A stretch of 24,000 nucleotides of DNA. It comes from Halorientalis salina. GTDB lineage: Archaea > Halobacteriota > Halobacteria > Halobacteriales > Haloarculaceae. Of this stretch, positions 5,106-18,215 are shown piece by piece. Each line of letters starts with the position of its first letter. Positions within the stretch are counted from its first letter, which is position 1. Both the position numbers and the translations under genes were made by a program. The notes beneath the pieces were generated by a model. The model ran no database searches. It was not told the origin of the DNA and saw nothing but the letters and a program-made list of their open reading frames with translations. The stretch lies in assembly GCF_005049285.1 (NCBI RefSeq), contig NZ_SOSC01000010.1, forward strand, positions 69,662 to 93,661, in the 5' to 3' direction.

Positions 5106-6962
5106 TCAGACAGGGGCGACCATGTCCATGGCCTCCCGCACCGACTCGCGCTGGCCCAGAATCGTGATCCGGTCACCGAGTTCCAGCGCCATGTCCGGTT
5201 CGGGGACCTCGATGCCGTCGTCGTGGTCGACCAGGGCGATGAGACAGTCCTCGGGGAGTTCGAGGCGGAGTTCCCGGACGGTGTAGTCGGCGAACCGCTC
5301 GGCCGTGAGTTCGACCTCCTGGACGTCGCCGACGCGGTCCAGATCGGTCATCCAGTGGGCCATGGCGGGCCGTTCGATCTGGTTGTCGATGGCCCAGGCG
5401 GTCGCCATGCTCGCGTCGATGGTTCGCACGCCGAGGTCCTCGAAGGCGTCGACGTTGTCGGGGTTGTTCACCCGTGCGATGACGGTCTCGACGTCGAACT
5501 TCGAGTTCGAGAGTTGCGCGATGAGCAGGTTCGCGTCGTCGTTGCCGGTCGCGGCGATGATCGTTTTGGCGTTGGCACCACCGGCCTCACTGAGGACCTC
5601 CGTGTCGGTGCCGTCACCCCAGACGACCGAGTACCCGTCGTTTCGTGTTCGTTCGACCATTGCCTCTTCCGTTTCGATGATGACGACGTTCTCGCCTCGA
5701 TCTTCGAGGCGTTCGGCGAGCGACCGACCCACTCGTCCGCCGCCAACGATGATGACTCTCATTGGTATCACATCCAGGTATTCCGCGATTTTGCGCGCGA
5801 AGCCGCCCTCGAAGGCGACCGTCGCGAAGATGACCAGAAAGACCGTCCCGACGAGCACCTGGGCCTGCTCGTCCAGCCCCTGGGCCTGCATCTCCACGGC
5901 GAACAGCGTCGCGACCGAGGCCGGAATGATGCCCCGCGGGCCGACGAAGCTCATGAACAGTTTCTCGCTGGTCTTGAACCGGTCGCCCCAGGTCGAGACG
6001 AAGACGAGCACCGGCCGGATGATCAGCATGATCACGGCGACGACGGCCAGTCCGGGTACCCCCAGTTGGAGGAGGTCCTCGAACTCCAGCAGCGCCGCCA
6101 GCGCGATGAAGACGATAGAAAGCACCAGCAACGTGATGTCGCCTTTGAACGCCGCGATTTCGTCCTCGTAGGGGAGGTCGGCGTTCCCGAGCAAGAGCCC
6201 GGCCGTCGCGACGGCCGCGACACCGGCCTCCGTCCTGATGGTATCGGCCGCGGCGAAGGCGACGAGCGCGCCCGCGAGCGTGAGCAGCCGTGCGCTCTGT
6301 GGCGCGTTGCCGGGTGAGAGGTCGACGTACCTGATGAGGTAGTAGATCACGGCGGCGACGACGACGCCGACGAGCAGTCCGATACCCAGGCGCGTGGCGA
6401 ACGCCTCGACGAACGACACTTCCGCCTCGTTTCGGAGGACGATGACCTTGAAGACGACGACGGCGATGATCGCCGCACTCACGTCGTTGATGATCCCCTC
6501 GGTCTCCAGGGCGGTCGCCACCCGGTCGCGGACGGGGACGACCTCCAGGATCGGCGTGACGACCGTCGGTCCCGTCGCGACCAGGAGGGCACCGATGAGA
6601 AAGGACATGTCCCAGGGTTGATCGAGCGCGAAGTGGACGACCACTGCAGTCCCGCCCAGTGCGATCGCGGCTCCCACCGTCACCAGCCTGAGCGTGGCCG
6701 CCGGTGCCGCCTTGACGCGATCGATGCGGAGGTGAAAGGCCCCCTCGAAGACGATGATCGCGACCGAGAGACCGACGATCGCGGGCAGCGCTGGCCCGAA
6801 CGACTCCCGCGTGACCAGGCCCAACCCCTCGGGACCGAGGGCGACGCCCGCGGTCAGGAGGAAGATGATACTGGGCACGCGAAAGCGCGCGGCCAACAGC
6901 TGTGCCCCGACGCCGATTCCGATTATCGCTGCAACCAGTGGAATTATCGCACTACTGGCCAC
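5106..6962 (-). CDS. cation:proton antiporter (Na+/H+ exchanger family) fused to a C-terminal RCK module (TrkA-N + TrkA-C)
   Basis: About 400 aa of multi-TM exchanger sequence, then MRVIIVGGGRVGRSLAERLEDRG (Rossmann GxGxxG, TrkA-N) and a TrkA-C-like end (GDRITILGQRESV). The ORF track starts at GTG 7049, but those first 29 aa (MYRGAESGRTDCECLNH...) look non-native. I favour GTG 6962 (VASSAIIPLVAAIIG). Confidence 0.88.
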   Translation of the reverse strand: MASSAIIPLVAAIIGIGVGAQLLAARFRVPSIIFLLTAGVALGPEGLGLVTRESFGPALPAIVGLSVAIIVFEGAFHLRIDRVKAAPAATLRLVTVGAAIALGGTAVVVHFALDQPWDMSFLIGALLVATGPTVVTPILEVVPVRDRVATALETEGIINDVSAAIIAVVVFKVIVLRNEAEVSFVEAFATRLGIGLLVGVVVAAVIYYLIRYVDLSPGNAPQSARLLTLAGALVAFAAADTIRTEAGVAAVATAGLLLGNADLPYEDEIAAFKGDITLLVLSIVFIALAALLEFEDLLQLGVPGLAVVAVIMLIIRPVLVFVSTWGDRFKTSEKLFMSFVGPRGIIPASVATLFAVEMQAQGLDEQAQVLVGTVFLVIFATVAFEGGFARKIAEYLDVIPMRVIIVGGGRVGRSLAERLEDRGENVVIIETEEAMVERTRNDGYSVVWGDGTDTEVLSEAGGANAKTIIAATGNDDANLLIAQLSNSKFDVETVIARVNNPDNVDAFEDLGVRTIDASMATAWAIDNQIERPAMAHWMTDLDRVGDVQEVELTAERFADYTVRELRLELPEDCLIALVDHDDGIEVPEPDMALELGDRITILGQRESVREAMDMVAPV

Positions 6963-7103
6963 ACCCGATCCTCCATACACCGGACCCAATGAACGGCTGT
7001 GATTTAAACACTCACAATCCGTCCTGCCGCTCTCTGCCCCGCGATACACTCGACCAGCGAGGACGGAGCGCGTTCACTATCGACGATGATAATGCAACCC
7101 TGA

Positions 7104-7113: not shown

Positions 7114-7130
7114 GTTCTGGTGAGGTGAGG

Positions 7131-8795
7131 ATGGTAATGAGTAGCATGAGGCGAATAACTCGGTTCGTTCACTCGTCTCGTCTCGCCGCGTTGGTTCGGT
7201 CCGACACCGACGACCACTCGGAGACGGACGCGACGACCACTGGCGAACCGGACACGGGGGGAACCGACAGAGAGCGGACGACTTCGGAGGACGGCTCGGA
7301 CCAGATGGCGCTGGAGACGACCGATGACGAGGGTGCGGGGGAGACGAATTCCACGTCGTCACCCGTCGGGACAGGCAGCGACCACACGCCAGTCGCCTCG
7401 GACGGCGGGACACACACGGTCGACGCGGCAGCCGCGTCGACCACGTCGTCGCTGGAAGCCACAGCCCGCGACTTCCGCGACGCCATGGCGGCCGCGGCGG
7501 ACGGCGACATCAGTCAGCGCCTGGACACGGACCGGGACAACGACGCGATGGCGGAGGCCGCGTCGGCGTTCAACGAGATGATGACGCATTTCACCGACAC
7601 CGTCGGGGAGTTAGAGGAGTTCGCCGAGGACGTCGACGACGCGACCGAGGAGATGAGCGCCGCCACCCGCGAAGTCAAGGAAGCCAGCGAAGAGGTCAGC
7701 GGGTCGATGGACCAGATCTCGAACAACGCCTCGAAGCAGGACGACCACCTCCAGGAGGTCGCCGACGAGATGACGGACCTCTCGGCGACCGTCGAGGAGA
7801 TCGCCTCCTCGGCCTCGGAGGTCGCCAGTATCTCCAGGGACGCCGCGGAGTTCGGGCAGGAAGGCCGCGACGCCGCCGAGAAGGCCGTCGATCGGATGGA
7901 CGAGATCGAAACGACGGCCGACGACACCATCGAGCAGGTCGAACACCTCGAAGAGCACATCTCCGAGATCAACGAGGTCGTCGAAGTGATCGACGAGATC
8001 GCCGATCAGACCTCGATTCTGGCACTGAACGCCTCGATCGAGGCGGCGCGAGCGGGCGAGGCCGGCGAGGGGTTCGCCGTCGTCGCCGACGAGGTCAAGC
8101 AGTTGGCCGAGGAGGCCAGCCAGGCGACCGAGGATATCAGCGAGATGATCACGGACGTCCAGGACGAGACGACGGCGACGGTCACGGAGATCCGCGAGAT
8201 GGGAGAGCACGTCTCGGAGGGGACGGACACCGTCGAGGAGGCGCTCGAAGCGCTCGACGCTATCGCGGACCGCGTCGAGGACGCCAACGACGGCGTCCAG
8301 TCGATCAACGAGGCCACCAACGAACAGGCGGGGAGTACCGAGGAGGTCGTCGCACTCGTCGAGGAGGTCGCCGACCTCAGCGAGCGGACGGCCGACGAAA
8401 CGCGCGAGGTGTCGGCCTCGGCAGAGGAACAGACCGCCGCACTAACCGAAGTGGCGGCCAACATGGACGGGATCGCCGACCAGGCGACTACCCTCACCAC
8501 GCTGCTCGACGACTTCGAGCGACGCGACGGGGACGGCGGCGACGACGACGATCTCGCCTGGGACGATGCGATGGTTCACGACGGTGACGACGAGGAGGAC
8601 GCCGCGGAAGAGACAGCAGCAGACAGCGACGAGGACGACGACCTCGCCTGGGACGACGCGATGGTTCACGACGGCGACGACGGCGGCGCTGGCGACGAGG
8701 ACGGGACGGGCGGAGAAACGACGGATGCGGACAGCGGCTCCGACGAGGAAGAAGAGATCTCCTGGGACGACGCGAAAGTCCACGACGGGAGTTGA
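7131..8795 (+). CDS. soluble (cytoplasmic) methyl-accepting chemotaxis transducer (Htr-type) with repeat-bearing acidic C-terminal tail
   Basis: Canonical MCP signalling hairpin [40 protein letters not shown] and a HAMP-like segment GDISQRLDTDRDNDAMAEAASAFNEMM. I see no hydrophobic TM segment. The first ~110 aa are Thr/Asp/Gly/Ser-rich low complexity. Start ambiguous: GTG 7125, ATG 7131/7137/7146 or ATG 7305. Confidence 0.9.
   Translation: MVMSSMRRITRFVHSSRLAALVRSDTDDHSETDATTTGEPDTGGTDRERTTSEDGSDQMALETTDDEGAGETNSTSSPVGTGSDHTPVASDGGTHTVDAAAASTTSSLEATARDFRDAMAAAADGDISQRLDTDRDNDAMAEAASAFNEMMTHFTDTVGELEEFAEDVDDATEEMSAATREVKEASEEVSGSMDQISNNASKQDDHLQEVADEMTDLSATVEEIASSASEVASISRDAAEFGQEGRDAAEKAVDRMDEIETTADDTIEQVEHLEEHISEINEVVEVIDEIADQTSILALNASIEAARAGEAGEGFAVVADEVKQLAEEASQATEDISEMITDVQDETTATVTEIREMGEHVSEGTDTVEEALEALDAIADRVEDANDGVQSINEATNEQAGSTEEVVALVEEVADLSERTADETREVSASAEEQTAALTEVAANMDGIADQATTLTTLLDDFERRDGDGGDDDDLAWDDAMVHDGDDEEDAAEETAADSDEDDDLAWDDAMVHDGDDGGAGDEDGTGGETTDADSGSDEEEEISWDDAKVHDGS
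8553..8789 (+). repeat. three copies of an 11-aa motif in the transducer tail: LAWDDAMVHDG (8553-8585), LAWDDAMVHDG (8643-8675), ISWDDAKVHDG (8757-8789)
   Basis: Read directly from the translation and DNA. Copies 1 and 2 are identical in protein and nearly identical in DNA. Each copy follows an Asp/Glu run. The third copy ends one residue before the C-terminus. Confidence 0.9.
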
Positions 8796-8882: not shown

Positions 8883-9281
8883 ATGCCGTACAAGTCCGGA
8901 GAGAGCTGGGAAGTGGACATCGACCAGGGAACGAACAGGCTGTACCTCGAACTCGACGGATACCTCGAGAGCGACGCGGCCGGTGCGGCGGCGGACGCGA
9001 CGATAGAAGGGGCAAAGAAGCTGGATGCGGGGTTCGACATGATCAACGACCTCTCGAACTTCCAGCCCTCCGACGAGGAGGCGATGAAACACATCGAGCG
9101 CGGGAAGAAAGGCATCGCCAAACACGACGTGGCCGCCGTCGTGCGCGTGACGTCCGAGTCGACGACGGGACAGATGCAGTTCGACCGCGCCGGCGAGGAC
9201 GAGGAGAGCTATCAGCTCGCGATGGCCGACTCCCAGGAGAAAGCCGAGAAGCTACTGGACAAGCGACGCGAACAAGCATGA
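8883..9281 (+). CDS. small acidic protein, paralog 1 of 4 (STAS/SpoIIAA-like layout, uncharacterised family)
   Basis: 132 aa. It shares the pattern W-x-V-x-I/T-D...NRLYL-x-L-x-G...GFD-x-IND-x-S-x-F-x-P...ERGK...RV-x-SESTTGQMQFDRAGE...YQLA...AEKLLD with the next two genes. Confidence 0.85.
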   Translation: MPYKSGESWEVDIDQGTNRLYLELDGYLESDAAGAAADATIEGAKKLDAGFDMINDLSNFQPSDEEAMKHIERGKKGIAKHDVAAVVRVTSESTTGQMQFDRAGEDEESYQLAMADSQEKAEKLLDKRREQA

Positions 9282-9349
9282 GAGAGACCCACTATCAACG
9301 GTGAAAAACGGCGAGGAACGCTTTTGACCGGTACCGCGATACTCGCCCT

Positions 9350-9727
9350 ATGGGCGACTGGAGCGTCGAAATCGACGAGGAGCGGAGTCGAATATACCTC
9401 ACGCTGTCGGGCTACCTGGAGCTATCGGAACACGAGAAGGTGGCCGACGCCGTGACAGAGGCCGCGATCGACATGGACGGCGGGTTCGACCTCGTCAACG
9501 ACATGTCGAGTTTCGAGCCGGCCAGCGAGGACGCGATGGCGGAGATCAAACGCGGGAAGCGCGGCCTCGCCGAGAACGGTATGGAGGCCGCCGTCCGCGT
9601 CGTCTCCGAATCGACGACCGGCCAGATGCAGTTCGACCGCGCCGGCGAGGGCGTCGAGAACTACCAGCTCGCAAAGGCGAACTCGATCGACGAGGCCGAG
9701 AAACTGCTGGACTCGCGGGGCGACTAG
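9350..9727 (+). CDS. small acidic protein, paralog 2 of 4
   Basis: 125 aa. By hand count, 79 of 125 ungapped positions are identical to paralog 3. It contains the identical 15-mer SESTTGQMQFDRAGE. Confidence 0.85.
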   Translation: MGDWSVEIDEERSRIYLTLSGYLELSEHEKVADAVTEAAIDMDGGFDLVNDMSSFEPASEDAMAEIKRGKRGLAENGMEAAVRVVSESTTGQMQFDRAGEGVENYQLAKANSIDEAEKLLDSRGD

Positions 9728-9802
9728 GGAGACCCAGTCGTCGGACAGTCGGCCCGGGACGGGCTGAAACACGTGAGCGATTCGATCACACGGAGAACAC
9801 AC

Positions 9803-10186
9803 ATGGGCACTTGGAACGTCGACACGGACGAGGAGAAGAACAGACTGTACCTATCCCTGGACGGGCACTTCGAGGTCGAGGAAGTGGCGGAAGCGGCGGA
9901 TGCGGTTATCGAGGCCGCGGAGCGACTCGACCCGGGGTTCGACGAGATCAACGACATGTCCGGGTTCGAGCCGGCCGACCAGGAAGCGATGGACCACATC
10001 GAACGGGGCAAACGCGGGATCACCGAAAACGGCGTCGCGGCCGTCTGTCGCGTCGTCTCCGAGTCGACGACGGGCCAGATGCAGTTCGACCGCGCCGGCG
10101 AAGGCGAGGAGGACTACCAGTTGGCGAAAACCGACTCCATCGAGAAAGCCGAGAAACTGCTCGACGCGCGCCGCGAGGACAACTGA
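9803..10186 (+). CDS. small acidic protein, paralog 3 of 4
   Basis: Internal ATG of ORF 9773..10186. MGTWNVDTDEEKNRLYL aligns with the N-termini MGDWSVEIDEE and MGQWSVDVDEE of paralogs 2 and 4. GGAG lies 8-11 nt upstream. Confidence 0.85.
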   Translation: MGTWNVDTDEEKNRLYLSLDGHFEVEEVAEAADAVIEAAERLDPGFDEINDMSGFEPADQEAMDHIERGKRGITENGVAAVCRVVSESTTGQMQFDRAGEGEEDYQLAKTDSIEKAEKLLDARREDN

Positions 10187-10263
10187 CCCCAGCGCGGACC
10201 CCGAATCGATCGATACCCAACAGTCTGCGAACATTCATTACGGAGTGCTTACATCACAGGGGT

Positions 10264-10635
10264 ATGGGACAGTGGAGTGTCGACGTCGACGAGGAGCGCA
10301 ACCGGTTGTACGCGGAGCTCTCGGGCTTTTTCGTGGAAGAAGAGGCGACGGAGTCGACCGAGGAGTTCATCGAGGCGGCCGAACGACTGGAGACGGGATT
10401 CGACATGATCCAGGACCTCGCGGAACTCCAGATCGGAGATCCGGGCGCGGCGGAGCAACTCGAACGCGGCAAGCGCCGGCTCGCGGAGAACGGACTGGCC
10501 ACCGTCGTCCGGATCCCGCCGACCGCCACGACGAGCGAACTGCAGTACGAGGAGTCTGGCGAGGACGCCGAGAACTACGAGATCAGGACCGCGTCGTCGG
10601 TCACGGAAGCCGAGACGATCCTCGACAACCAGTAA
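10264..10635 (+). CDS. small acidic protein, paralog 4 of 4 (most divergent)
   Basis: In frame within ORF 9811..10635. MGQWSVDVDEERNRLYAELSGFF...GFDMIQDLAELQ...ERGKRRLAENG keeps the family pattern. The conserved SESTTGQMQFDRAGE block is replaced by PTATTSELQYEESGE. Confidence 0.8.
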   Translation: MGQWSVDVDEERNRLYAELSGFFVEEEATESTEEFIEAAERLETGFDMIQDLAELQIGDPGAAEQLERGKRRLAENGLATVVRIPPTATTSELQYEESGEDAENYEIRTASSVTEAETILDNQ

Positions 10636-11658: not shown

Positions 11659-12240
11659 ATGCGAGAAGACGGGACAGCCGAACCCGACGGCGACGACGAC
11701 CGGGCCGACGAGGGTCTACCCGCGACATCGTCGATCGACGGCGCTGTCGGCGAGGAACTGACGCGACTGCGCGGCGAGATCGAGCAGCTATCGGTCGCGG
11801 TGGCGACCCTCCAGGAGGCCGACGAGGAGCGCGAACAGCGGCTCTCGGACCTCGAAACGCGCGTCGAGGACTACCAGCGGCGCGGCGAGCGCGAGCGCGA
11901 GCAACTGGCCGCACAGACGCTGGCCGACTTCGCCGACCGCATGCTGTCGGTCAAGGACAGCCTCGACAACGTCCTCGGGATGGCCGACCTGGACGAGGAC
12001 ACCGACCGACAGCTCTCGCTGGTCCGCAAACAGTTCGAGCAGTCCTTTACCGGCGGCGAGGTCGAGCGCATCCGCTCGGACGGCCAGTTCGACGCGAGCC
12101 GACACAAGATGGTCGAACGGGTGCCGGCCGACGACCGCGACGACGGCGAGATCGTCCGAGAACTCGACGCGGGCTATGCTCTGGGGGACCGCGTCCTCAG
12201 ACCGGCCCGCGTCGTGGTCGCGAAAGGCGACGGCTCCTGA
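11659..12240 (+). CDS. grpE: nucleotide exchange factor GrpE
   Basis: Acidic N-terminus, a long coiled-coil (LRGEIEQL...LETRVEDYQRRGEREREQL) and a C-terminal beta domain with GQFDASRHKMV (the FDPxxHxA-type motif) and GYALGDRVLRPARVVVAK. Confidence 0.85.
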   Translation: MREDGTAEPDGDDDRADEGLPATSSIDGAVGEELTRLRGEIEQLSVAVATLQEADEEREQRLSDLETRVEDYQRRGEREREQLAAQTLADFADRMLSVKDSLDNVLGMADLDEDTDRQLSLVRKQFEQSFTGGEVERIRSDGQFDASRHKMVERVPADDRDDGEIVRELDAGYALGDRVLRPARVVVAKGDGS

Positions 12241-12255
12241 CTCGTCGCCGAACGA

Positions 12256-13257
12256 TCAACCGCCAGCCAGATACCCGGCCAGTCCGCCGATGGCGACCGG
12301 GTAGACAAGCCCCATTATCAGAACTGCGCTGCCAAGGTCCGGCTGAATCGTGACGACGCCACCGGTCCCGCTGTACGAGAAGACGGTCATCGCGCCGAGG
12401 ACCGTGAGCGCGAGGTAGCCGACGGCGATCGTCGCGCCGGCCCGGGCGCTGTCGAACCGGGAGACGGGTTCGTCCATCGACGCTCGCGAGGCGAGTATCA
12501 TCCCGAACAGCAAGAGGAGCACTGCCGGGACGACGTAGTAGGCGATTTTCGGCACTATCGGGTCCAGCGTGGCGCTGTAGGCCTCTTCGACGAAGTTTAT
12601 CGACTCGTCACCGGCCGAGTCCGTAGTCTGGACTCCGTGTGCCGAGTAGAAGAACCAGCCGAACAGCGCGACCAGCGCATCGACCGAGTCCTCCACCGGA
12701 AGCACGCCCAGCCCGTCGCTGTCCTCCACTTCCAGGAGGACGAAGGCGGAGATGACGACGAAACTGATGAGATACGAGAACAGCCCGTAAATGACGCCGC
12801 CGACGATGGGCAGGTCCGAGAGCAGACTCGTGGCCGTTCCGGTCGTCTGCTGGTTGCCGCCCTGACGCGTGCCGCCACCGCGCTGGGCTCCCTGGCCCTG
12901 TCGCTGGTGACCGCCGGGCTGACTGCCCTGCGTCGGTTGCTGGTAATTGCCGGACTGACCACCCTGGCCCGGTTGCTGCTGACCGCCCTGCGTCGGTTGT
13001 TGCCGGCCGCCCTGCGTCGGTTGCTGTGGACCGCCACCGGATTGCTGGGGTTGGCCCCCGCCGACACTGACGGGTTGCCCGGACTCCTGGGTCCCCGATC
13101 CGGGCTGTTGGGGCGGTGTCTGGCCGGTCCCGTGTTCGTCGCCCTGGGTCGGTTGCGTGCCCTGTCCACCCTGCTCGTCCTGTGACAGCGTCACGCCACA
13201 CTCGGGACACTGCCGGTTCTGTGCGGACACCTCGGTCCCGCACGACGGACAGTACAT
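12256..13257 (-). CDS. zinc-ribbon membrane protein with a long Gln/Gly/Pro-rich low-complexity domain
   Basis: N-terminal MYCPSCGTEVSAQNRQCPECG (CxxC-x11-CxxC zinc ribbon). A Q/G/P/T-rich region of ~115 aa follows, with reiterated QQPTQGG units, then a C-terminal domain with several hydrophobic TM segments. Confidence 0.85.
   Translation of the reverse strand: MYCPSCGTEVSAQNRQCPECGVTLSQDEQGGQGTQPTQGDEHGTGQTPPQQPGSGTQESGQPVSVGGGQPQQSGGGPQQPTQGGRQQPTQGGQQQPGQGGQSGNYQQPTQGSQPGGHQRQGQGAQRGGGTRQGGNQQTTGTATSLLSDLPIVGGVIYGLFSYLISFVVISAFVLLEVEDSDGLGVLPVEDSVDALVALFGWFFYSAHGVQTTDSAGDESINFVEEAYSATLDPIVPKIAYYVVPAVLLLLFGMILASRASMDEPVSRFDSARAGATIAVGYLALTVLGAMTVFSYSGTGGVVTIQPDLGSAVLIMGLVYPVAIGGLAGYLAGG
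12838..13182 (-). repeat. Q/G/P-rich low-complexity coding region with imperfect reiterated units (QQPTQGG; DNA unit gccctgcgtcggttg on the + strand occurs 3 times)
   Basis: Read directly from the translation (aa 26-140 of the zinc-ribbon protein) and from the DNA. Confidence 0.85.
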
Positions 13258-13326: not shown

Positions 13327-14928
13327 TCAGGACCCGACCTGTGCCGTATCGCTGCCGTCGTCGGGCGAGGTGCCGGTGACGTTCTGTTCGACGGTGAGCG
13401 AGCCCTCGGCGTCGCCGTCGATGTCTTCGGCCGTCACGTGGAGAATGCCGTCGTCGTCGATCCGGAAGGTCACCTCGATGGTCGGGTCGCCGGCCGGGGC
13501 CTCCGGGATGCCGGTGAGCGTGAACTCGTCCAACTTCTCGTTCTCGCGAGCCGTTTCGTGTTCGCCCTGAAACACGTCGATGGCCATGATCGTCTGGTCG
13601 TCGCGGGTCGTCGTGTAGTACTTCGTCCCCGTCGCTTCCGTGATGGGCGTCCCCTTCTCGATCAAGACGTTGAAGCTGCCGTCCTTGACGCGGGTGCCCA
13701 GCGAGCGTGTGACGATGCTTTTGACCGTGATCTCGCCGCGTTCCTCGACTTTCTCGGCGTGATCCGCTGCCCCGTGTGCGTCGTCGACGTGGTTCTGGAA
13801 CGCCTCGCGGGCGTCGAAGGTCTCGCCGCAGGTGCAAGCGTACTGCTCCTCGACGGCCCCGCTCTTCTCGGCGTACAGCGCCGCCCCCTTCGCGACGATC
13901 TTGTCCGGTTCGAAGGTCAGTTCGGGATCGACGCCGGTGTAGTCGGCGACGCGTTCCTGGATGGCCGGCATCCGCGTCGACCCGCCCACCAGCAAGACGG
14001 TGTCGACGTCGCGGGTCGTGCGGTCGGCGTCGTCGAGCGCCTGTTCCAGCGGGGCCAGGGCTCGTTCCCGGAGGTCCTCCGTGATCGACTCGAAGGTGTC
14101 GCGGGTCAGCGTCTCCTCGACGTCGACGATCTCGCCGTCGACCTGGCCGAGTAGCGGTTCGATGAGTTCTGTCTCCGCGGCGGTCGAGAGGTCGATCTTC
14201 GCGCTCTCGCCGAGCGAGCGGAGGTTCGCCCGGAGTTCGTCCGCGGCCAGGACGTCGATGCCCCGGTCCCCCTCGATCCGGTCGGCGACGTGTTCGACGA
14301 TCGCCTCGTCGAAGTCGGTGCCGCCGAGGTGGTTGTCGCCACTGGTCGTCAGGATGGTGAAGGTGTCGTCGGCGATCTCCAGAACGGAGACGTCGAGCGT
14401 GCCGCCGCCGAAGTCGTAGACCACGAGCGTCTCCTCGTCGAGGCCGGCGTCGTAGCCGTGGGCGATGGCCGCCGCGGTCGGTTCGTTCAGGAGCGTGATC
14501 TCGTCGAAGCCGGCCAGTTCGGCTGCCCGTCGGGTCGCCTTCTTCTGGTCTGCGGTGAAGTAGGCCGGGACGGTGACGACGGCTCTCGTGACTTCCTCAC
14601 CGAGATAGGACTCGGCGTCAGCCTTGAGTTTCCGGAGGATCTCGGCGGAGATCTCGGCGGGGTCGTAGGACTCGCCGTCGATCTCGACGCCGTCACCCGT
14701 GCCGATGTGGCGCTTGATGGTTCTGATCGTTCGGTCGGGATTGGCGGGGGCGCGGTTCTCGGCGCGCCGGCCGACCACCGGGTCCCCGTCGTCGTCGAAG
14801 CTGACGACCGACGGCGTCAGCGGCTCGCCCTCGTTGTTCTGTAACATCTGGACGTCGTCGCCCTCGATGAGCGCCATGCCGCTGTTGGTCGTCCCGAGAT
14901 CGATCCCCAGGGCCTTCTCACTGACCAT
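13327..14928 (-). CDS. Hsp70/DnaK-family ATPase paralog, lid-less, with a zinc-finger-like insertion between the NBD and SBD
   Basis: MVSEKALGIDLGTTNS, VTVPAYF, NEPTAAAIAHG, DFGGGTLDVS and LVGGSTRMPAIQ are Hsp70 NBD motifs. IPEAPAGDPTIEVTFRIDDDGILHVTAED is the SBD-beta signature. The protein ends shortly after SBD-beta, at 533 aa from ATG 14928, with no helical lid or EEVD-like tail. AGGTG lies 11 nt upstream of the ATG. Confidence 0.9.
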   Translation of the reverse strand: MVSEKALGIDLGTTNSGMALIEGDDVQMLQNNEGEPLTPSVVSFDDDGDPVVGRRAENRAPANPDRTIRTIKRHIGTGDGVEIDGESYDPAEISAEILRKLKADAESYLGEEVTRAVVTVPAYFTADQKKATRRAAELAGFDEITLLNEPTAAAIAHGYDAGLDEETLVVYDFGGGTLDVSVLEIADDTFTILTTSGDNHLGGTDFDEAIVEHVADRIEGDRGIDVLAADELRANLRSLGESAKIDLSTAAETELIEPLLGQVDGEIVDVEETLTRDTFESITEDLRERALAPLEQALDDADRTTRDVDTVLLVGGSTRMPAIQERVADYTGVDPELTFEPDKIVAKGAALYAEKSGAVEEQYACTCGETFDAREAFQNHVDDAHGAADHAEKVEERGEITVKSIVTRSLGTRVKDGSFNVLIEKGTPITEATGTKYYTTTRDDQTIMAIDVFQGEHETARENEKLDEFTLTGIPEAPAGDPTIEVTFRIDDDGILHVTAEDIDGDAEGSLTVEQNVTGTSPDDGSDTAQVGS

Positions 14929-14991
14929 CTCGACTACACCTGCCTCGCCGCGGCATATCACGCTTTCGCCCGATGTGAGCGACGAAGCCGG

Positions 14992-17208
14992 TCAATCGTC
15001 GCCTCCGGAGGGTACCGCCTGTATCTTCTCGTCGCCCGCGTCGATCTCGAAGGCGGCGAGCATCTCCTGGAGTTCTCGGGTCCGCTCGGCCAGGCTCGCC
15101 GCCGAGTCCGACACCTGGCTGATCGAGCTGCTGGCCTCCTCGGAGGCGGCGGCGACGGTCTCGGCCTGCTGGGTGGTCTCCTCGGAGACGCTGGCGATCT
15201 CGTCGACCATCCGGACGATCTGCTGGGCAGAGTCGGCCTGTTCGTCGGTGGCGTCGTTGATGCTCTTGAGGCCGCCGTCGACGCTGTCGACCCCGTCGAC
15301 GATCGCTTCGAGCGAGTCGGTCAGGTCCTCGACGGTCTCGGTCCCCTCGGTGATGCGGGACTCGGCTTCGCGGATGTCCTCGGCGCTGGCCGTCGCCCGG
15401 TCCTGGACCGACGAGATGGTCGTCTCGATCTCGTCGACCGCCCGCTGGGTCTCCTCGGAGAGTTCCTTGACCTCCTCGGCGACGACCGCGAACCCGGAGC
15501 CGGACTCGCCGGCGCGGGCGGCCTCGATGTTGGCGTTCAGCGCCAGAATCGAGGTCTGCTCGGCGATCTCGTCGATCAGACGAGTCACCTCGCTGATCTC
15601 GTCGATCTCGTCGGTGAGCCGCTCGATCGACTCGACTACGTTGCCCGTCTGTGCCTCGATGGACTGCATCTCCTCGATGGTCGCCTCGGCCTGCTCGCGG
15701 CCCTCGGCACCGAGTTCGGCCACCCTGTCGGACTGGCTGGCGACCTCGTCGGTCGTCGAGGCCACCTCCTCGATGGTCGCCGAGAGGTCGTTGACCTCGT
15801 CACCCGTCGCCTGCAGGTCCTCGGTCTGTTCCTGTGCGCCCGTCGAGATTCCCTGGATGGAGCGGCTGACCTCCTCGCTTGCCTCCTTGACCTCGCCGGC
15901 GCTGTCCTCGACGTCGTGACTCGACGCGGCGACGTCCTCGGCGAACTGCTGGACGTCGGCGACGGTCCGTTCGAGGTCGGCGATCATCTCGTTGAACGAG
16001 TCGGCGATCGACTGCATCGCATCACTGTCGGTTTCGGGGTCGAGCCGCCGGGTGAGGTCGCCGTCCGCACAGGCCGCCATCGTCTCGCTGTAGCGTTCGG
16101 CCTCGGCTTCGAGCTGCTCGTTGAACCGCTGGGTCTCGAGTTCGCGCTGTTCGGCCTCCTCGCGTGCGCGTTCGGCCTCGGCTCTCGCGTCGTCGGCTTC
16201 GGCCAGGGACTCCTTGAGCGAGTCGCGCATCGCGCCGAACTCCCCGTAGAGCATCCCGACCTCGTCGGTGCGGTCGGTCTCCAGTTCGACGTCCAGGTTC
16301 CCCTCGCCGATCTCGCTGGCCCGATCCGCGAGCTGGCGCAGCGCCAGTGCGAGGTTGCCACCGATGGTGATCCCGAACACGCCGAGGTTCAGGGCGATGA
16401 CGTACAGGAGCGCGACGAGCCCCGCCGTCGCGGTGTTCCGGTCAGTGTACACCACGTCGCTCGGCGCGTACGTCACGACCTGCCAGTTCGTGTCGGCCAC
16501 GCCCGCCCCCGTCGTCGCGAACTCGGACCCGTCGACGGTCGTCGTCTCGATGCCCTCGTCGCCGGCCAGGTCCGCCGCGCCCGTGGCGTTCCACGCCGTC
16601 GACCCGGATGCGGCCACTGGGGTTCCGTCGACCACGAGCGCCGTCGCGTAGCCGTCGTCCGCGATCCGGGACTGCAGGGACGCCGTCGAGGCGTCCACGA
16701 CGATCGCGCGGTCCGCGTCGACCGCCGCCACGAACGGCACGACCGTCGCGTCACCGCTCACGGCCGCCCGCGGCGTGCCCGCGACCGCCTCGCCGTCGCC
16801 GGCGTCACCGACCGCGACCGTCTCGCCCGTCGCGTCGCTCGCCGAACTCGACAGTATCTCGCCGCTCGTCCGGTCGACGTAGTGGACCGCGGCGACGCGA
16901 TCGGCCCCTGCCGCCCGGTCGAGTCGATCCGCGATCCGGTCGGTATCGCCGCTCTCGACGGCGCTCGACGTCGCGACGCCGGTGGCGAGTGCCTCGTTCG
17001 AGTCGGCCCACAGCGCCGTGACGTTGGCACCGTCGCTCGCGTGGTCGGTGAAGGCCGCGTCCGCCGACTGCCCGAGTTCGCCGGCAACGTTACCGTAAAA
17101 AAAGGCGGTCGAGACCAGCGTGATCAGGAAGACCACGCTGAGCGTGACCACCATCTTCAGGCTGTAGCTCGACCTGACCCGATCCAGTACGTTCGTATCG
17201 AAGTTCAT
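14992..17208 (-). CDS. membrane-bound methyl-accepting transducer (HtrII-like: TM1, ~220-aa extracellular Cache-like domain, TM2, HAMP, MCP signalling domain)
   Basis: TM1 [23 protein letters not shown] and TM2 [33 protein letters not shown] segments ([26 protein letters not shown], and [26 protein letters not shown]) and the MCP core [40 protein letters not shown]. Confidence 0.93.
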
Positions 17209-17335
17209 GTGTCCTCACTTCCGGGCCGCATACCCCGTGTGAATCGTACCCGAACGATGCCAGTCGTCTCGGTAAAACCTGACGGGCGGATTATTAGATC
17301 CGATAACAAACCACTTCGAGGTTGATTACGCATCG

Positions 17336-18091
17336 TCAATCACCGGCCGGGGTGTCGGCGCTCGGTGGGTGCGTTCCGTCGTCGCGGAAGTAATCGAGCG
17401 GCGTCGGGTGCTCGGCCGCGAGTTCCCGGATCGCGGTCGGCGCTCGCAGCAGGATTCCGCCGAACCCGATGTGCCCGAGCAGGTCGAGGTAGCCGCCGAC
17501 GTAGACGCCGGTGAACGTCCCGAGGAGCCCGAGGCCCTGGCGGGAGGTCAGTCCGACGACGAGGTACATCAGCATCAACAGCGCCATGAGGTTCCGGAGT
17601 TTCCCGAAGAGCAGCCGCCGGGCACCGGTCACGGCCTGGGCGGACTGGGTGTAAGGGAGGAAAAGCAGGTAGAGAGCGCTGGCGATCGATGCGAGAACCA
17701 TCAGTTTGCCGCCGCTGTCGAAGGGCACTGGAGCGAGCCAGTTTATCAGCGTCCCGGTCACGAACCCGACGAGCGCGATCATTCCAGCGAGCGTGAGCCG
17801 GCGACTGGCGTCCGCGAGTACGCCGATCGACGCGACCACGAGCGGATACGTGAACAGGTACATCAAGAACCGCGAGACGGGAACCGGTTCGCCGCCGGGA
17901 CTGTGAAGGACGAGCAGCTGGTTGGCCATCGCGAAGTAACCGATCATCAACATCCCGGATGCGAACGGTGCGAGCAGCAGGTACTGGCGCGTCGTCCCGG
18001 AGAACTGGCGGAGTCTGGCGACGAAGCCGAGTGTCGCGACGAGCGCCACGGTCGAAACCAGCAGATAGAACGTGCTCTCGGGAATGATCAT
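17336..18091 (-). CDS. bacteriorhodopsin-family (type-1 opsin fold) 7TM protein lacking the retinal-binding lysine (His at the Schiff-base position)
   Basis: Seven hydrophobic segments that align helix by helix with BR and sensory rhodopsin II. Helix C is [14 protein letters not shown] (BR: ARYADWLFTTPLLL). Helix F is [18 protein letters not shown] (BR: VLRNVTVVLWSAYPVVWL). Helix G is [17 protein letters not shown] (NpSRII: YLDLVTKVGFGFIAL; BR: LDVSAKVGFGLILLRS). Start taken at ATG 18091 ([11 protein letters not shown]). The ORF-track start at 18184 is a TTG that adds a basic 31-aa extension. Confidence 0.85.
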
Positions 18092-18190
18092 GATGCCTCC
18101 GATCGTCGGGGTCGGACGACGAGTCGCGAGCGCTGTGCGGTCGTGTCCGGCGGAGCGGTCCCAGACCCGATACTCGACATGCAAGAACGT

Positions 18191-18215
18191 TCGATTAAAC
18201 TACAGTATAAAAGTA
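18191..18215. promoter_or_regulatory. AT-rich block (tcgattaaactacagtataaaagta) in the 225-bp divergent spacer between the opsin-like gene and serS
   Basis: It contains TATA-like cores readable on both strands (GTATAAAAG on +, CTTTTATAC and GTTTAATCG on -). It lies ~100 bp from each start codon, which implies 5' leaders of about 70-90 nt if it is used. Confidence 0.35.

What the first reader, a model, noticed from the sequence alone, without database searches (positions are those of the whole stretch)
14992..18091. Lysine-less opsin homologue paired with an HtrII-like transducer, in inverted gene order
The opsin-like gene (18091 to 17336) and a two-TM methyl-accepting transducer (17208 to 14992) are co-directional and separated by 127 bp. 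In the established haloarchaeal photosensory operons (htrI-sopI, htrII-sopII) the transducer gene comes first; here the opsin-like gene is upstream. The helix-G sequence is closest to the SRII type and keeps the Tyr equivalent to NpSRII Y199, a residue known to contact HtrII. The signalling residue T204 is Gly and K205 is His. Like H. salinarum HtrII, this transducer has a large extracellular domain (aa ~39-258, nt 16435-17094). That domain looks Cache-like ([31 protein letters not shown]). My inference is that a receptor-transducer complex has been conserved but the receptor no longer senses light. It may sense a membrane-embedded or chemical or physical cue, or it may act as a constitutive modulator of the Htr.
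Basis: partly seen in the sequence, partly recalled or inferred. Interest (0 to 1): 0.8.

Follow-up and report, generated by a model that had tools for sequence, protein, structure and literature searches.

The report
Lysine-less opsin paired with chemotaxis transducer
This haloarchaeal gene pair encodes a rhodopsin-like membrane protein that cannot bind retinal (His replaces the essential Lys) next to a chemotaxis transducer; it is a new His-type branch, with flipped gene order, of the "opsin-related proteins" described in 2016, whose stimulus is still unknown.

Summary
ORF 18091-17336 (-) is a 251-aa, 7-TM microbial-rhodopsin homologue (Pfam E 3e-15; AF2 pLDDT 88; TM-score to NpSRII, normalised by target length, about 0.9). 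His207 sits at the Schiff-base Lys position and Gly206 at T204. Y199, D201 and R72 are kept, and all three retinal-pocket Trp are lost. A 127-bp spacer separates it from ORF 17208-14992 (-), a 2-TM/HAMP/MCP transducer with a 215-aa extracellular domain.

The idea is not new. Becker et al. 2016 (PMC4915679) described haloarchaeal lysine-less opsin-related proteins (ORPs). These are mostly adjacent to HAMP/MCP genes, keep Y199, do not bind retinal, and were proposed as non-light sensors.

New here:
- A rare His-type subclade (about 25 proteins in the word-indexed search of 5.8 billion; named ones are Halorientalis), absent from Becker's genome set.
- ORP-first order in all 9 distinct core-clade loci. 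Relatives have Htr-first or divergent order, so adjacency survived three arrangements.
- dN/dS is about 0.2 for both genes.
- Conservation concentrates in ORP helices F and G and in Htr TM2, the parts that form the SRII-HtrII interface.

"Cache-like" is inconclusive. No complex model could be run. The pair is most likely a retinal-free receptor/modulator subunit of the Htr; the stimulus is unknown.

The parts
17336..18091 (-). ORP gene: 251-aa lysine-less type-1 opsin homologue of the His-type ('GH') subclade
   Evidence: ORF. Pfam Bac_rhodopsin E 3.4e-15. AF2 7-TM model, pLDDT 88, pTM 0.85. Foldseek against SRII/BR structures, TM-score normalised by target length 0.85-0.92. dN/dS 0.18-0.32 in close pairs.
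17471..17473 (-). CAC codon for His207, at the position of the Schiff-base lysine (NpSRII K205 / BR K216)
   Evidence: HMMER alignments to four solved rhodopsins. His in 19 of 22 family members, Gln in H. brevis, Arg or Val in the most distant members. Codon read.
17447..17626 (-). Helix F, F-G loop (invariant S183-R184-Q185 within the SRQGLGLL motif, whose other positions are nearly invariant) and helix G (Y201, D203, G206, H207). This is the most conserved part of the protein and the presumed transducer-facing side.
   Evidence: Mean identity to the window protein in the core clade: F 0.83, FG loop 0.91, G 0.74, against 0.47-0.56 for helices A-E. Invariant columns. Helix limits from the AF2 model.
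18205..18212 (-). TTTTATAC, a TATA-box-like element in the SerRS/ORP divergent intergenic region. It is a candidate ORP promoter (inferred only).
   Evidence: Sequence. A TTTAT element is conserved upstream of the ORP in all orthologous loci, 40-120 nt from the ATG. No transcript data.
17209..17335 (-). 127-nt ORP-Htr spacer
   Evidence: Spacers are 67-138 nt in most orthologous loci but 1 nt in H. marina (L002) and L015/L016. The RNA fold is not better than shuffles, z -0.22.
17287..17308 (-). Conserved AT-rich palindromic element TGTTATCGGATCTAATAATCCG in the spacer, followed by TTTTACC at 17271-17277. It may be an internal promoter or operator for the Htr gene (inferred).
   Evidence: Aligned across the six loci with the longest spacers (127-138 nt: window, L005, L001, L006, L010, L017). 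Arm changes keep the inverted repeat (CGGAT/ATCCG against CGAA/TTCG).
14992..17208 (-). Htr gene: 738-aa two-TM methyl-accepting transducer
   Evidence: ORF. HAMP E 4e-14 and MCPsignal E 3e-39. 63-77% identical orthologues lie immediately downstream of the ORP in nine loci.
17089..17157 (-). Htr TM1 (aa 18-40)
   Evidence: Hydropathy. Weakly aligned to NpHtrII TM1. Core-clade identity for aa 1-40 is 0.60.
16435..17088 (-). Htr extracellular domain (aa 41-258); fold unassigned
   Evidence: Lies between the two TM segments. No Pfam hit. No PDB profile hit. Weak dCache_1 hit in 1 of 9 orthologues. AF2 single-sequence model unusable, pLDDT 45. It is the least conserved part of the protein, 0.51. 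It is homologous in L011 and L020 and absent in L003 and L023.
16354..16434 (-). Htr TM2 (aa 259-285), including Asn274, the equivalent of NpHtrII N74
   Evidence: phmmer alignment to NpHtrII chains, E 2e-20 ('vialNlgv' against 'llgiNlgl'). Core-clade identity 0.87.
15187..16356 (-). HAMP1 (aa 285-333), HAMP2-like segment and MCP signalling domain (aa 506-674)
   Evidence: Pfam coordinates. Alignment to NpHtrII through HAMP1.

Best explanation
The upstream gene encodes a member of the haloarchaeal opsin-related protein (ORP) class. These are 7-TM type-1 opsin homologues that have lost the Schiff-base lysine (here His207) and the tryptophan cage of the retinal pocket, so they cannot act as canonical retinal photoreceptors.

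I infer that it works as the membrane partner of the transducer encoded next to it. ORP helices F and G would pack against Htr TM1/TM2, as in the SRII-HtrII 2:2 complex, with Tyr201 bonding to Asn274. A conformational state of the ORP would then pass through TM2 and the HAMP domains to the MCP tip, and so to CheW/CheA and the archaellar switch.

The input is not light through retinal. Two sources are likely:
- The ORP's strongly conserved extracellular face (E5, Y9, R74, Y78, the [10 protein letters not shown] loop, D203 and H207 below it), binding a ligand or sensing protons.
- The Htr's own 215-aa extracellular domain, with the ORP setting or modulating the transducer's signalling bias. This would make a two-input receptor like H. 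salinarum SRII-HtrII (light plus serine).

Shown:
- Fold, residue substitutions and clade membership.
- Conserved adjacency in three gene arrangements.
- Purifying selection.
- F/G and TM2 conservation.

Inferred:
- The physical complex.
- Direction of signalling.
- Nature of the stimulus.
- Co-transcription.
For: Fold and substitutions:
- Pfam and PDB alignments; AF2 and Foldseek.
- Pocket residues: W76 to Y, W171 to M, W178 to G, D75 to M, T204 to G, K205 to H; R72, Y174, Y199 and D201 kept.

Membership of the lysine-less clade:
- An exhaustive profile search gave 304 hits. In the signature table and NJ tree, the lysine-less sequences form one cluster apart from the main body of Lys-bearing opsins (a few scattered K-to-R/T/V sequences sit among the latter). 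The His-type sequences form their own branch within that cluster.
- This matches the class described in PMC4915679.

Linkage to the Htr:
- ORP then Htr in the window, H. brevis, H. marina and six metagenomic lineages, 9 of 9. The spacer is 1 nt in L002/L015.
- A full-length Htr homologue (44-45% identity, including the extracellular domain) is paired with more distant ORPs in Htr-first order (L011) and in divergent order (L020).
- Htr-first order, with a 4-8 nt overlap of the two genes, in group-A-like and group-B-like ORPs.

Selection: dN/dS 0.18-0.32 for both genes.

Interface:
- ORP helices F, FG loop and G at 0.74-0.91 identity against 0.47-0.56 elsewhere. Htr TM2 at 0.87 against TM1 0.60 and the extracellular domain 0.51.
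- Htr TM2 and HAMP align to NpHtrII at E 2e-20, with N74 conserved.

Becker et al. showed two ORPs (groups A and B) do not bind retinal in vitro and that eight of the nine ORP genes they tested are transcribed.
Against:
- The second SRII-HtrII hydrogen-bond set (T189 with E43/S62) is not conserved: Gly191 in the ORP, and Asn40/Ala262 in the Htr.
- Conservation of helices F and G is also typical of ordinary rhodopsins, so it is suggestive rather than specific.
- Several His-type ORPs have no adjacent Htr: L014, and two paralogues in L019. The protein can therefore exist without a linked transducer gene.
- His207 is Gln in H. brevis and L010, so a titratable His is not strictly required.
- The core-clade loci are all syntenic over more than 10 kb (SerRS, peroxiredoxin, MBL). 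Their 9 of 9 adjacency is therefore partly shared ancestry; the independent evidence comes from the rearranged distant loci.
- The ORP evolves faster than its neighbours: 54-57% identity against 63-77% for the Htr and 84-91% for SerRS.
Confidence: 0.62

Rival explanations
1. The ORP is functionally independent of the Htr. It would be a 7-TM membrane protein with another role, such as a channel or transporter, a lipid scramblase-like activity, a membrane-stress factor or a chaperone client. The adjacency would be inherited synteny without coupling.
For: - His-type ORPs without an adjacent Htr exist (L014, L019 x2), as do K-to-V relatives (L004, L012).
- Becker et al. found 15 of 32 group B ORPs not next to transducers, some of them near stress genes.
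- In most core loci an atypical Hsp70 / GrpE / zinc-ribbon membrane protein module follows the Htr.
- The core-clade loci are collinear over more than 10 kb.
Against: - ORP-Htr adjacency persists in three different arrangements, with homologous Htrs, and when the Hsp70 module is absent (L002, L015).
- The two genes are separated by 1 nt (L002, L015) or overlap by 4-8 nt (L022, L023) in several lineages.
- A haloarchaeon has roughly 10-25 Htr genes among about 3,500 genes (my own estimate). That gives roughly a 1% chance of adjacency for a random gene.
- Tyr201 and Asn274 are retained.
Confidence: 0.17
2. The ORP is still a photoreceptor. It would use a non-covalently bound or unconventional chromophore (retinal analogue, carotenoid or other pigment) and signal light to the Htr as SRI and SRII do.
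For: - Y174, D201, R72 and Y51 equivalents are retained in this subclade. Becker's groups A and B both lost Y174, so the pocket is less degraded here.
- BR and bovine rhodopsin lacking the Lys can work with aminated retinylidene compounds, as cited in PMC4915679.
- Becker et al. state that an alternative chromophore remains untested.
- No His-type ORP has been tested.
Against: - All three pocket tryptophans are lost (W76 to Y, W171 to M, W178 to G). The counterion D75 is Met, and P175 is Leu.
- His cannot form a retinal Schiff base.
- Two ORPs from groups A and B showed no 480-580 nm absorption with excess retinal.
- Eight ORP-only species lack crtY and brp.
Confidence: 0.08
3. The ORP is a decaying relic of a former sopII-like gene (pseudogene-like passenger) next to a working chemoreceptor.
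For: - It is the fastest-evolving gene of the locus.
- Becker et al. could not detect ORP protein natively.
Against: - Intact 249-261-aa ORFs in all core-clade orthologues.
- dN/dS about 0.2, equal to that of the Htr.
- 19 invariant residues, including a family-specific SRQ motif.
- Confident AF2 fold.
- Coding-type GC3 of 0.84, computed on the longer TTG-start ORF 17336-18184 that contains the gene.
- The clade has diversified to more than 100 clusters at 50% identity.
Confidence: 0.03

Closest known systems
Haloarchaeal opsin-related proteins (ORPs), groups A and B (Becker et al. 2016, PLoS One 11:e0156543, PMC4915679)
   Same: - Type-1 opsin homologue lacking the Schiff-base Lys.
- W178 replaced by Gly or Ala.
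- Y199 universally kept; R72 and Y51 kept, as in group B.
- Falls within the cluster of lysine-less opsins.
- Adjacent to a HAMP/MCP transducer.
- Same hypothesis of non-light sensory signalling.
   Different: - His at the Lys position (group A has Arg; group B has Leu or another hydrophobic residue).
- Y174 is retained (both groups have Leu).
- T204 is Gly.
- D189 is not kept in the window copy (Gly191).
- Gene order is ORP-first rather than the Htr-first order I saw in group-A-like and group-B-like loci.
- The host genus Halorientalis is absent from their 80-genome set.
- The partner Htr carries a 215-aa extracellular domain.
Sensory rhodopsin II - HtrII complex (Natronomonas pharaonis, PDB 1H2S; H. 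salinarum SRII-HtrII)
   Same: - 7-TM fold (TM-score normalised by target length 0.87-0.92).
- Helix G motif YLDL..(K/H)xGFG.
- Tyr199 equivalent and HtrII Asn74 equivalent both kept.
- Transducer with TM1, TM2, two HAMP-like segments and an MCP domain, aligning to NpHtrII at E 2e-20.
- HsHtrII also has a large extracellular domain and a second (serine) input (established knowledge).
   Different: - No Lys, no retinal pocket and no D75 counterion.
- T204 (needed for SRII signalling) is Gly.
- The T189-E43/S62 contacts are not conserved.
- Gene order is opposite to htrII-sopII.
- About 25% sequence identity.
Other lysine-less microbial rhodopsin homologues (fungal ORPs; Rh-noK of Guillardia theta, PMC7714340; flotillin-associated rhodopsins, PMC10308929)
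   Same: Independent cases of type-1 opsin scaffolds that no longer bind retinal and are presumed to have light-independent roles.
   Different: - Phylogenetically unrelated losses. Becker et al. found none of the non-haloarchaeal ones inside the haloarchaeal ORP clade.
- None is paired with an MCP transducer.

Membership tests
Microbial (type-1) rhodopsin superfamily (Pfam PF01036) | Seven-TM bacteriorhodopsin-like fold with sequence similarity above the family threshold | tested here: met
   Pfam 56.6 bits against a 24.6 cut-off. 90 PDB rhodopsin sequences at E<0.01. AF2 model with seven helices, pLDDT 88. Foldseek TM-score (normalised by target length) up to 0.92.
Microbial (type-1) rhodopsin, functional retinal protein | Schiff-base lysine in the middle of helix G | tested here: not met
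   His207 aligns with K205/K216 in four independent pairwise alignments and in the 173-sequence alignment. The only Lys residues are K129 and K164.
Microbial (type-1) rhodopsin, functional retinal protein | Aromatic retinal pocket (NpSRII W76, W171, Y174, W178) and D75 counterion | tested here: not met
   The equivalents are Y78, M173, Y176, G180 and M77. Only Y174 is kept.
Haloarchaeal ORP class (Becker et al. 2016) | Haloarchaeal type-1 opsin homologue lacking the helix-G lysine and clustering with other lysine-less haloarchaeal opsins rather than with BR/HR/SR | tested here: met
   Signature table and NJ tree of 162 sequences from the exhaustive profile search. The NJ tree is approximate and has no bootstrap.
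Haloarchaeal ORP class (Becker et al. 2016) | Y199 conserved; W178 replaced by a small residue | tested here: met
   Tyr201 is invariant. Gly180 is present in 21 of the 22 sequences of A1 (Ala in P0021) and in every core-clade member.
Haloarchaeal ORP class (Becker et al. 2016) | Adjacency to a HAMP/MCP signal transducer (15 of 16 group A, 17 of 32 group B) | tested here: met
   Window and 9 of 9 distinct core-clade loci.
Haloarchaeal ORP class (Becker et al. 2016) | No retinal binding in vitro | not testable with these tools
   Shown by Becker et al. only for one group A and one group B protein. No His-type ORP has been tested.
ORP group A | K205 to Arg, W76 to Asp, Y174 to Leu, W178 to Ala | tested here: not met
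   The window protein has His, Tyr, Tyr and Gly at these positions.
ORP group B | K205 to Leu or another hydrophobic residue; Y174 to Leu; Y51 and R72 kept; W178 to Gly | tested here: not met
   Y51, R72 and W178-to-Gly match, but the Lys position is His and Y174 is kept. The His-type sequences form a separate branch next to the group-B-like sequences.
SRII-HtrII-type receptor-transducer pair | Transducer with TM1-TM2, HAMP and MCP signalling domain homologous to HtrII | tested here: met
   Pfam HAMP and MCPsignal. NpHtrII is the best PDB match, E 2e-20, over TM2-HAMP1. NpHtrII is the only haloarchaeal Htr in PDB, so this does not single out HtrII among Htrs.
SRII-HtrII-type receptor-transducer pair | Receptor Tyr199 - transducer Asn74 hydrogen-bond pair | tested here: met
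   Tyr201 and Asn274 align with them. Asn is kept in the core clade, L020 and L023, and is His in L003 and L011. This is an alignment-level result only.
SRII-HtrII-type receptor-transducer pair | Receptor Thr189 - transducer Glu43/Ser62 contacts; Thr204 signalling residue | tested here: not met
   The equivalents are Gly191 (Asp in roughly half of the family members), Asn40, Ala262 and Gly206.
SRII-HtrII-type receptor-transducer pair | Physical 2:2 complex through helices F/G and TM1/TM2 | not testable with these tools
Only indirect support is available: conservation is concentrated in F/FG/G and TM2.
SRII-HtrII-type receptor-transducer pair | Operon order htr then sop | tested here: not met
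   ORP is upstream of Htr in the window and in all core-clade loci. Htr-first order is seen in L003, L011, L022 and L023.
Cache-domain chemoreceptor (for the Htr extracellular domain) | Significant match to a Cache profile or a Cache-like (long helix plus PAS-like alpha/beta) fold | tested here: inconclusive
   No Pfam hit for the window copy at E<=10. One of nine orthologues matches dCache_1 at E 0.0067. No PDB profile hit. The AF2 single-sequence model has pLDDT 45 and is unusable.

The most novel reading that the evidence does not exclude
The His-type ORP is a true retinal-free 7-TM sensor. The buried His207/Asp203/Arg74 triad and the invariant extracellular F-G loop (SRQGLGLL) would form a ligand-sensing or proton/PMF-sensing site. 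Its state would be relayed through helices F and G to Htr TM2. Together with the Htr's own extracellular domain this would make a two-input, light-independent taxis receptor: an archaeal, GPCR-like use of the opsin scaffold for chemical or electrochemical sensing.
Probability: 0.2. Interest if true: 0.85.

Novelty: new member of a known kind. Interest (0 to 1): 0.45.

Why it matters
The function of ORPs is an open question ten years after their description. They make up nearly 30% of haloarchaeal opsins, and no stimulus, complex or phenotype is known. This locus adds a well-defined subclade for experiments. It has a polar, titratable His at the Schiff-base site, a less degraded pocket, and a partner Htr that can be identified without ambiguity. 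The ORP-Htr pair has stayed adjacent through three gene arrangements, which is stronger comparative evidence for functional coupling than adjacency counts alone. It also shows that database entries naming the Halorientalis proteins 'bacteriorhodopsin' are misannotations, which inflate counts of phototrophy genes in hypersaline metagenomes.

Tried and rejected
1. **ORP-Htr complex model.** I built a paired alignment of nine ORP-(GGGGS)6-Htr(1-345) fusions (A2).
2. **Fold of the Htr extracellular domain.**
- The word-indexed homologue search with Htr aa 1-300 returned nothing. Its 8,000 scored candidates were probably taken up by matches to the low-complexity Ala/Gly/Thr/Val-rich sequence.
   - The single-sequence AF2 model had pLDDT 45, so I ran no fold search on it.
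   - The profile search against PDB was empty.
3. **Wider locus collections.** The genome contigs and metagenome-contig scans with the family alignment gave only 4 and 2 loci. The synteny statistics therefore rest on exact-protein look-ups.
4. **Profile re-search in the word-indexed database.** It added only four proteins.
5. **Structured RNA in the 127-nt spacer.** Rejected, z -0.22.
6. **Pseudogene or relic.** Rejected on dN/dS and invariant motifs.
7. **Relocated Schiff-base lysine.** Rejected. K129 is at the start of helix E and K164 at the cytoplasmic start of helix F.
8. **sigma-70 promoter/terminator scanner.** Not used, because it does not model archaeal promoters.


Full report
**1. 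Observation**

The opsin-like ORF is best read from the ATG at 18091, giving 251 aa. A GGAGG lies 5 nt upstream. Every orthologue starts MI(V/I)xE and is about 251 aa. The ORF matches Pfam Bac_rhodopsin (E 3.4e-15) and 90 solved rhodopsin sequences.

In the HMMER alignments to NpSRII, deltarhodopsin, HmBRI and cruxrhodopsin-3, helix G reads [11 protein letters not shown] opposite YLDLVTKVGFG. So:
- the Schiff-base lysine is His207;
- T204 is Gly206;
- Y199 (Tyr201) and D201 (Asp203) are kept.

The protein's only lysines, K129 and K164, lie elsewhere. An AF2 model built on 22 family sequences is a confident seven-helix bundle (pLDDT 88, pTM 0.85). It superposes on SRII, BR and other microbial rhodopsins with target-normalised TM-scores of 0.85-0.92.

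The downstream ORF (738 aa) has HAMP and MCPsignal domains. It has two hydrophobic segments, aa 18-40 and 259-285, bracketing a roughly 215-aa hydrophilic domain. The spacer is 127 nt. The descriptive part of the finding is therefore confirmed.

**2. Prior description of this class**

Becker et al. 2016 (PLoS One, PMC4915679) surveyed 80 haloarchaeal genomes. They found 48 lysine-less 'opsin-related proteins' (ORPs) among 170 opsins, forming a monophyletic clade next to the sensory rhodopsins.
- Group A (mainly Halorubrum) has K to R. Fifteen of 16 are adjacent to a HAMP/MCP transducer.
- Group B (Natrialba and others) has K to Leu or another hydrophobic residue. Seventeen of 32 are adjacent to a transducer.
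- Y199 is universally conserved and the retinal pocket is lost.
- Eight of nine ORP genes tested were transcribed.
- Two purified ORPs did not bind retinal.
- The authors proposed a sensory, non-light taxis function.

I found no later functional study of haloarchaeal ORPs in the held library.

**3. Place of this protein within the class**

Close relatives are rare. The word-indexed search of 5.8 billion proteins returned 21, and 25 with a profile. The named ones are Halorientalis brevis, H. marina and Halorientalis sp. IM1011, all annotated 'bacteriorhodopsin'. A scan of 185,579 species genomes gave four loci.

The family alignment shows:
- His at the lysine position in 19 of 22 sequences (Gln in H. 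brevis; Arg or Val in the most distant);
- invariant R74 (=R72), Y78 (W76 to Y), Y176 (=Y174, kept), S183-R184-Q185, Y201 and D203.

An exhaustive profile search of 1.84 billion cluster representatives gave 304 hits. I aligned the full-length ones among the 150 best-scoring hits together with the earlier family members and NpSRII (173 sequences; 162 kept for the tree).

In the signature table and an NJ tree, the lysine-less sequences form one cluster, apart from the main body of Lys-bearing opsins. A few scattered K-to-R/T/V sequences sit among the Lys-bearing ones. Three types are visible within the cluster:
- group-A-like (W76 to D, Y174 to L, W178 to A, K to R);
- group-B-like (D75 to G, W76 to Y, Y174 to L, W178 to G/A/S, K to V/L/I);
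- the window's 'GH' branch (Y174 kept, W178 to G, T204 to G, K to H).

The protein is therefore an ORP, but it meets neither the group A nor the group B definition. Halorientalis is not in Becker's genome list. The tree is distance-based without bootstrap, so the exact branching is provisional.

**4. Synteny**

The order SerRS (divergent) | ORP, Htr, then downstream genes holds in:
- the window;
- H. brevis (L001) and H. marina (L002);
- six further metagenomic lineages (L005, L006, L007-9, L010, L015-16, L017-18).

That is 9 of 9 distinct loci, at 54-94% ORP identity. The pair stays together when the following Hsp70/GrpE module is absent (L002, L015). In those two loci the genes are 1 nt apart.

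These loci are collinear over more than 10 kb, so much of this is shared ancestry. The more telling evidence comes from distant relatives:
- L011 is a K-to-R ORP (34% identity) that keeps D75 and T204. It lies 11 nt downstream of a full-length homologue of this Htr (44% identity, including the extracellular domain).
- L020/L021 is an 'AYDGH' ORP (41% identity). It has a 45%-identical full-length Htr homologue in divergent orientation.
- L003 (Natronosalvus hydrolyticus) is a K-to-H ORP. L023 is group-B-like and L022 group-A-like. All three have Htr-first order, with the two genes overlapping by 4 nt in L023 and 8 nt in L022. In L003 and L023 the transducer lacks the extracellular domain.

Adjacency has thus survived at least three arrangements. 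ORP-first order is a derived feature of the window's core clade. Some His-type ORPs have no neighbouring Htr: L014, and two paralogues in L019.

**5. Selection and conservation**

dN/dS is 0.18-0.32 for close pairs, for both the ORP and the Htr. This rules out a decaying relic.

Within the core clade, mean identity to the window proteins is as follows:

| Protein | Region | Mean identity |
|---|---|---|
| ORP | helix F | 0.83 |
| ORP | F-G loop | 0.91 |
| ORP | helix G | 0.74 |
| ORP | helices A-E and tail | 0.47-0.56 |
| Htr | TM2 | 0.87 |
| Htr | HAMP1 | 0.85 |
| Htr | N-terminus and TM1 | 0.60 |
| Htr | extracellular domain | 0.51 |

In the NpSRII-HtrII crystal structure the interface is formed by SRII helices F and G with HtrII TM1/TM2 (established knowledge; PDB 1H2S). 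Helix C, which is conserved in retinal-binding rhodopsins, is not conserved here.

The Htr's TM2-HAMP1 aligns to NpHtrII at E 2e-20, and Asn274 lies opposite N74, the partner of SRII Y199. The other contact set (T189 with E43/S62) is not conserved.

Most invariant ORP residues (E5, Y9, M55, G67, R74, Y78, S183-R184-Q185, L190, F193, G195) lie in the extracellular half. This fits Becker's modelled extracellular pocket. The SRQGLGLL motif also occurs in ORPs whose Htr has no extracellular domain (L003) or that have no adjacent Htr (L004, L012). It is therefore an intrinsic ORP feature, not a docking site for that domain.

**6. Points left open**

- The 'Cache-like' label stays inconclusive.
- No complex could be modelled.
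- Co-transcription is uncertain in this genome. The six longest spacers (127-138 nt) share a conserved AT-rich inverted repeat, TGTTATCG(G/A)A..ATAAT..CG, followed by TTTACC. Arm changes preserve the palindrome. The spacer has no unusual RNA stability. I read this as a possible internal promoter or operator, which is inference only.

**7. Mechanism**

Most likely (about 0.6), the ORP is a retinal-free 7-TM subunit bound to the Htr through helices F/G and TM1/TM2. It would either transduce a non-light cue received at its conserved extracellular/His-Asp-Arg core, or set the signalling bias of an Htr that senses through its own extracellular domain.

Rivals:
- an Htr-independent membrane function (about 0.17);
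- a photoreceptor with an unconventional chromophore (about 0.08);
- a relic (about 0.03).

**8. Verdict**

The finding is real and well observed, but its central idea was published in 2016. New here are the His-type subclade, the inverted gene order, the three-arrangement linkage, and the matching F/G-TM2 conservation. I rate it a new member, with variant features, of a known kind whose function is still unknown. Interest is moderate (0.45).

Noticed in passing
window 13327-14961 (-), with 12256-13257 (-) and 11659-12240 (+): An atypical 544-aa Hsp70 starts 30 nt after the Htr stop. Its DnaK equivalog score is 469, below the 648 cut-off, and it carries a C2H2-like insert 'YACTCGETFDAREAFQNHVDDAH'. 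It is followed by a zinc-ribbon, Gln/Gly-rich membrane protein (DUF7978 in L006) and a convergent GrpE. The module is present in five orthologous loci and absent from L002 and L015. Becker et al. also noted heat-shock genes near some ORPs.
   Followed up: partly
window 7125-8795 (+) and 8883-10635 (+): A soluble MCP (556 aa; MCPsignal only, no HAMP hit, no TM check done) is followed by four tandem paralogous small acidic proteins of about 121-137 aa, starting 'MG(T/Q)W(N/S)VD(T/V)DEE(K/R)NRLY'. Three of them were scanned and have no Pfam or NCBIfam match; the fourth (~10270-10635) was read by eye from the ORF list and not scanned. L015/L016 show the same kind of arrangement: three small genes with no Pfam hit next to a homologous soluble MCP. 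This may be an uncharacterised sensor module.
   Followed up: partly
window 17287-17308 (- strand), and 17271-17277: A conserved AT-rich inverted repeat (TGTTATCGGATCTAATAATCCG) followed by TTTTACC lies inside the ORP-Htr spacer. Six loci share it, with arm changes that preserve the palindrome. It is absent where the spacer is 1 nt. It may be an internal promoter or operator.
   Followed up: partly
P0008, P0015, P0174 (Halorientalis brevis, H. marina, Halorientalis sp. IM1011): Public annotation calls these lysine-less proteins 'bacteriorhodopsin', and JGI calls metagenomic copies 'sensory rhodopsin' or 'bacteriorhodopsin'. These are misannotations that would inflate counts of phototrophy genes.
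   Followed up: yes
L019 156-878 (-) and 5001-5753 (+): One metagenomic contig carries two His-type ORP paralogues 4 kb apart (helix G 'YVDLIGHIVFAG' and P0035). Neither is next to an MCP. One sits beside an ABC transporter operon.
   Followed up: partly
window 5106-7049 (-): A Kef-type Na+/H+-exchanger-family protein with TrkA-N and TrkA-C domains is divergently oriented to the soluble MCP. It looks ordinary.
   Followed up: no
A1 alignment, C-terminus (window aa 250-251): Nearly all family members end in Gly/Ser-Asp ('..AGD', '..SD') after a variable acidic tail. The significance is unknown.
   Followed up: no
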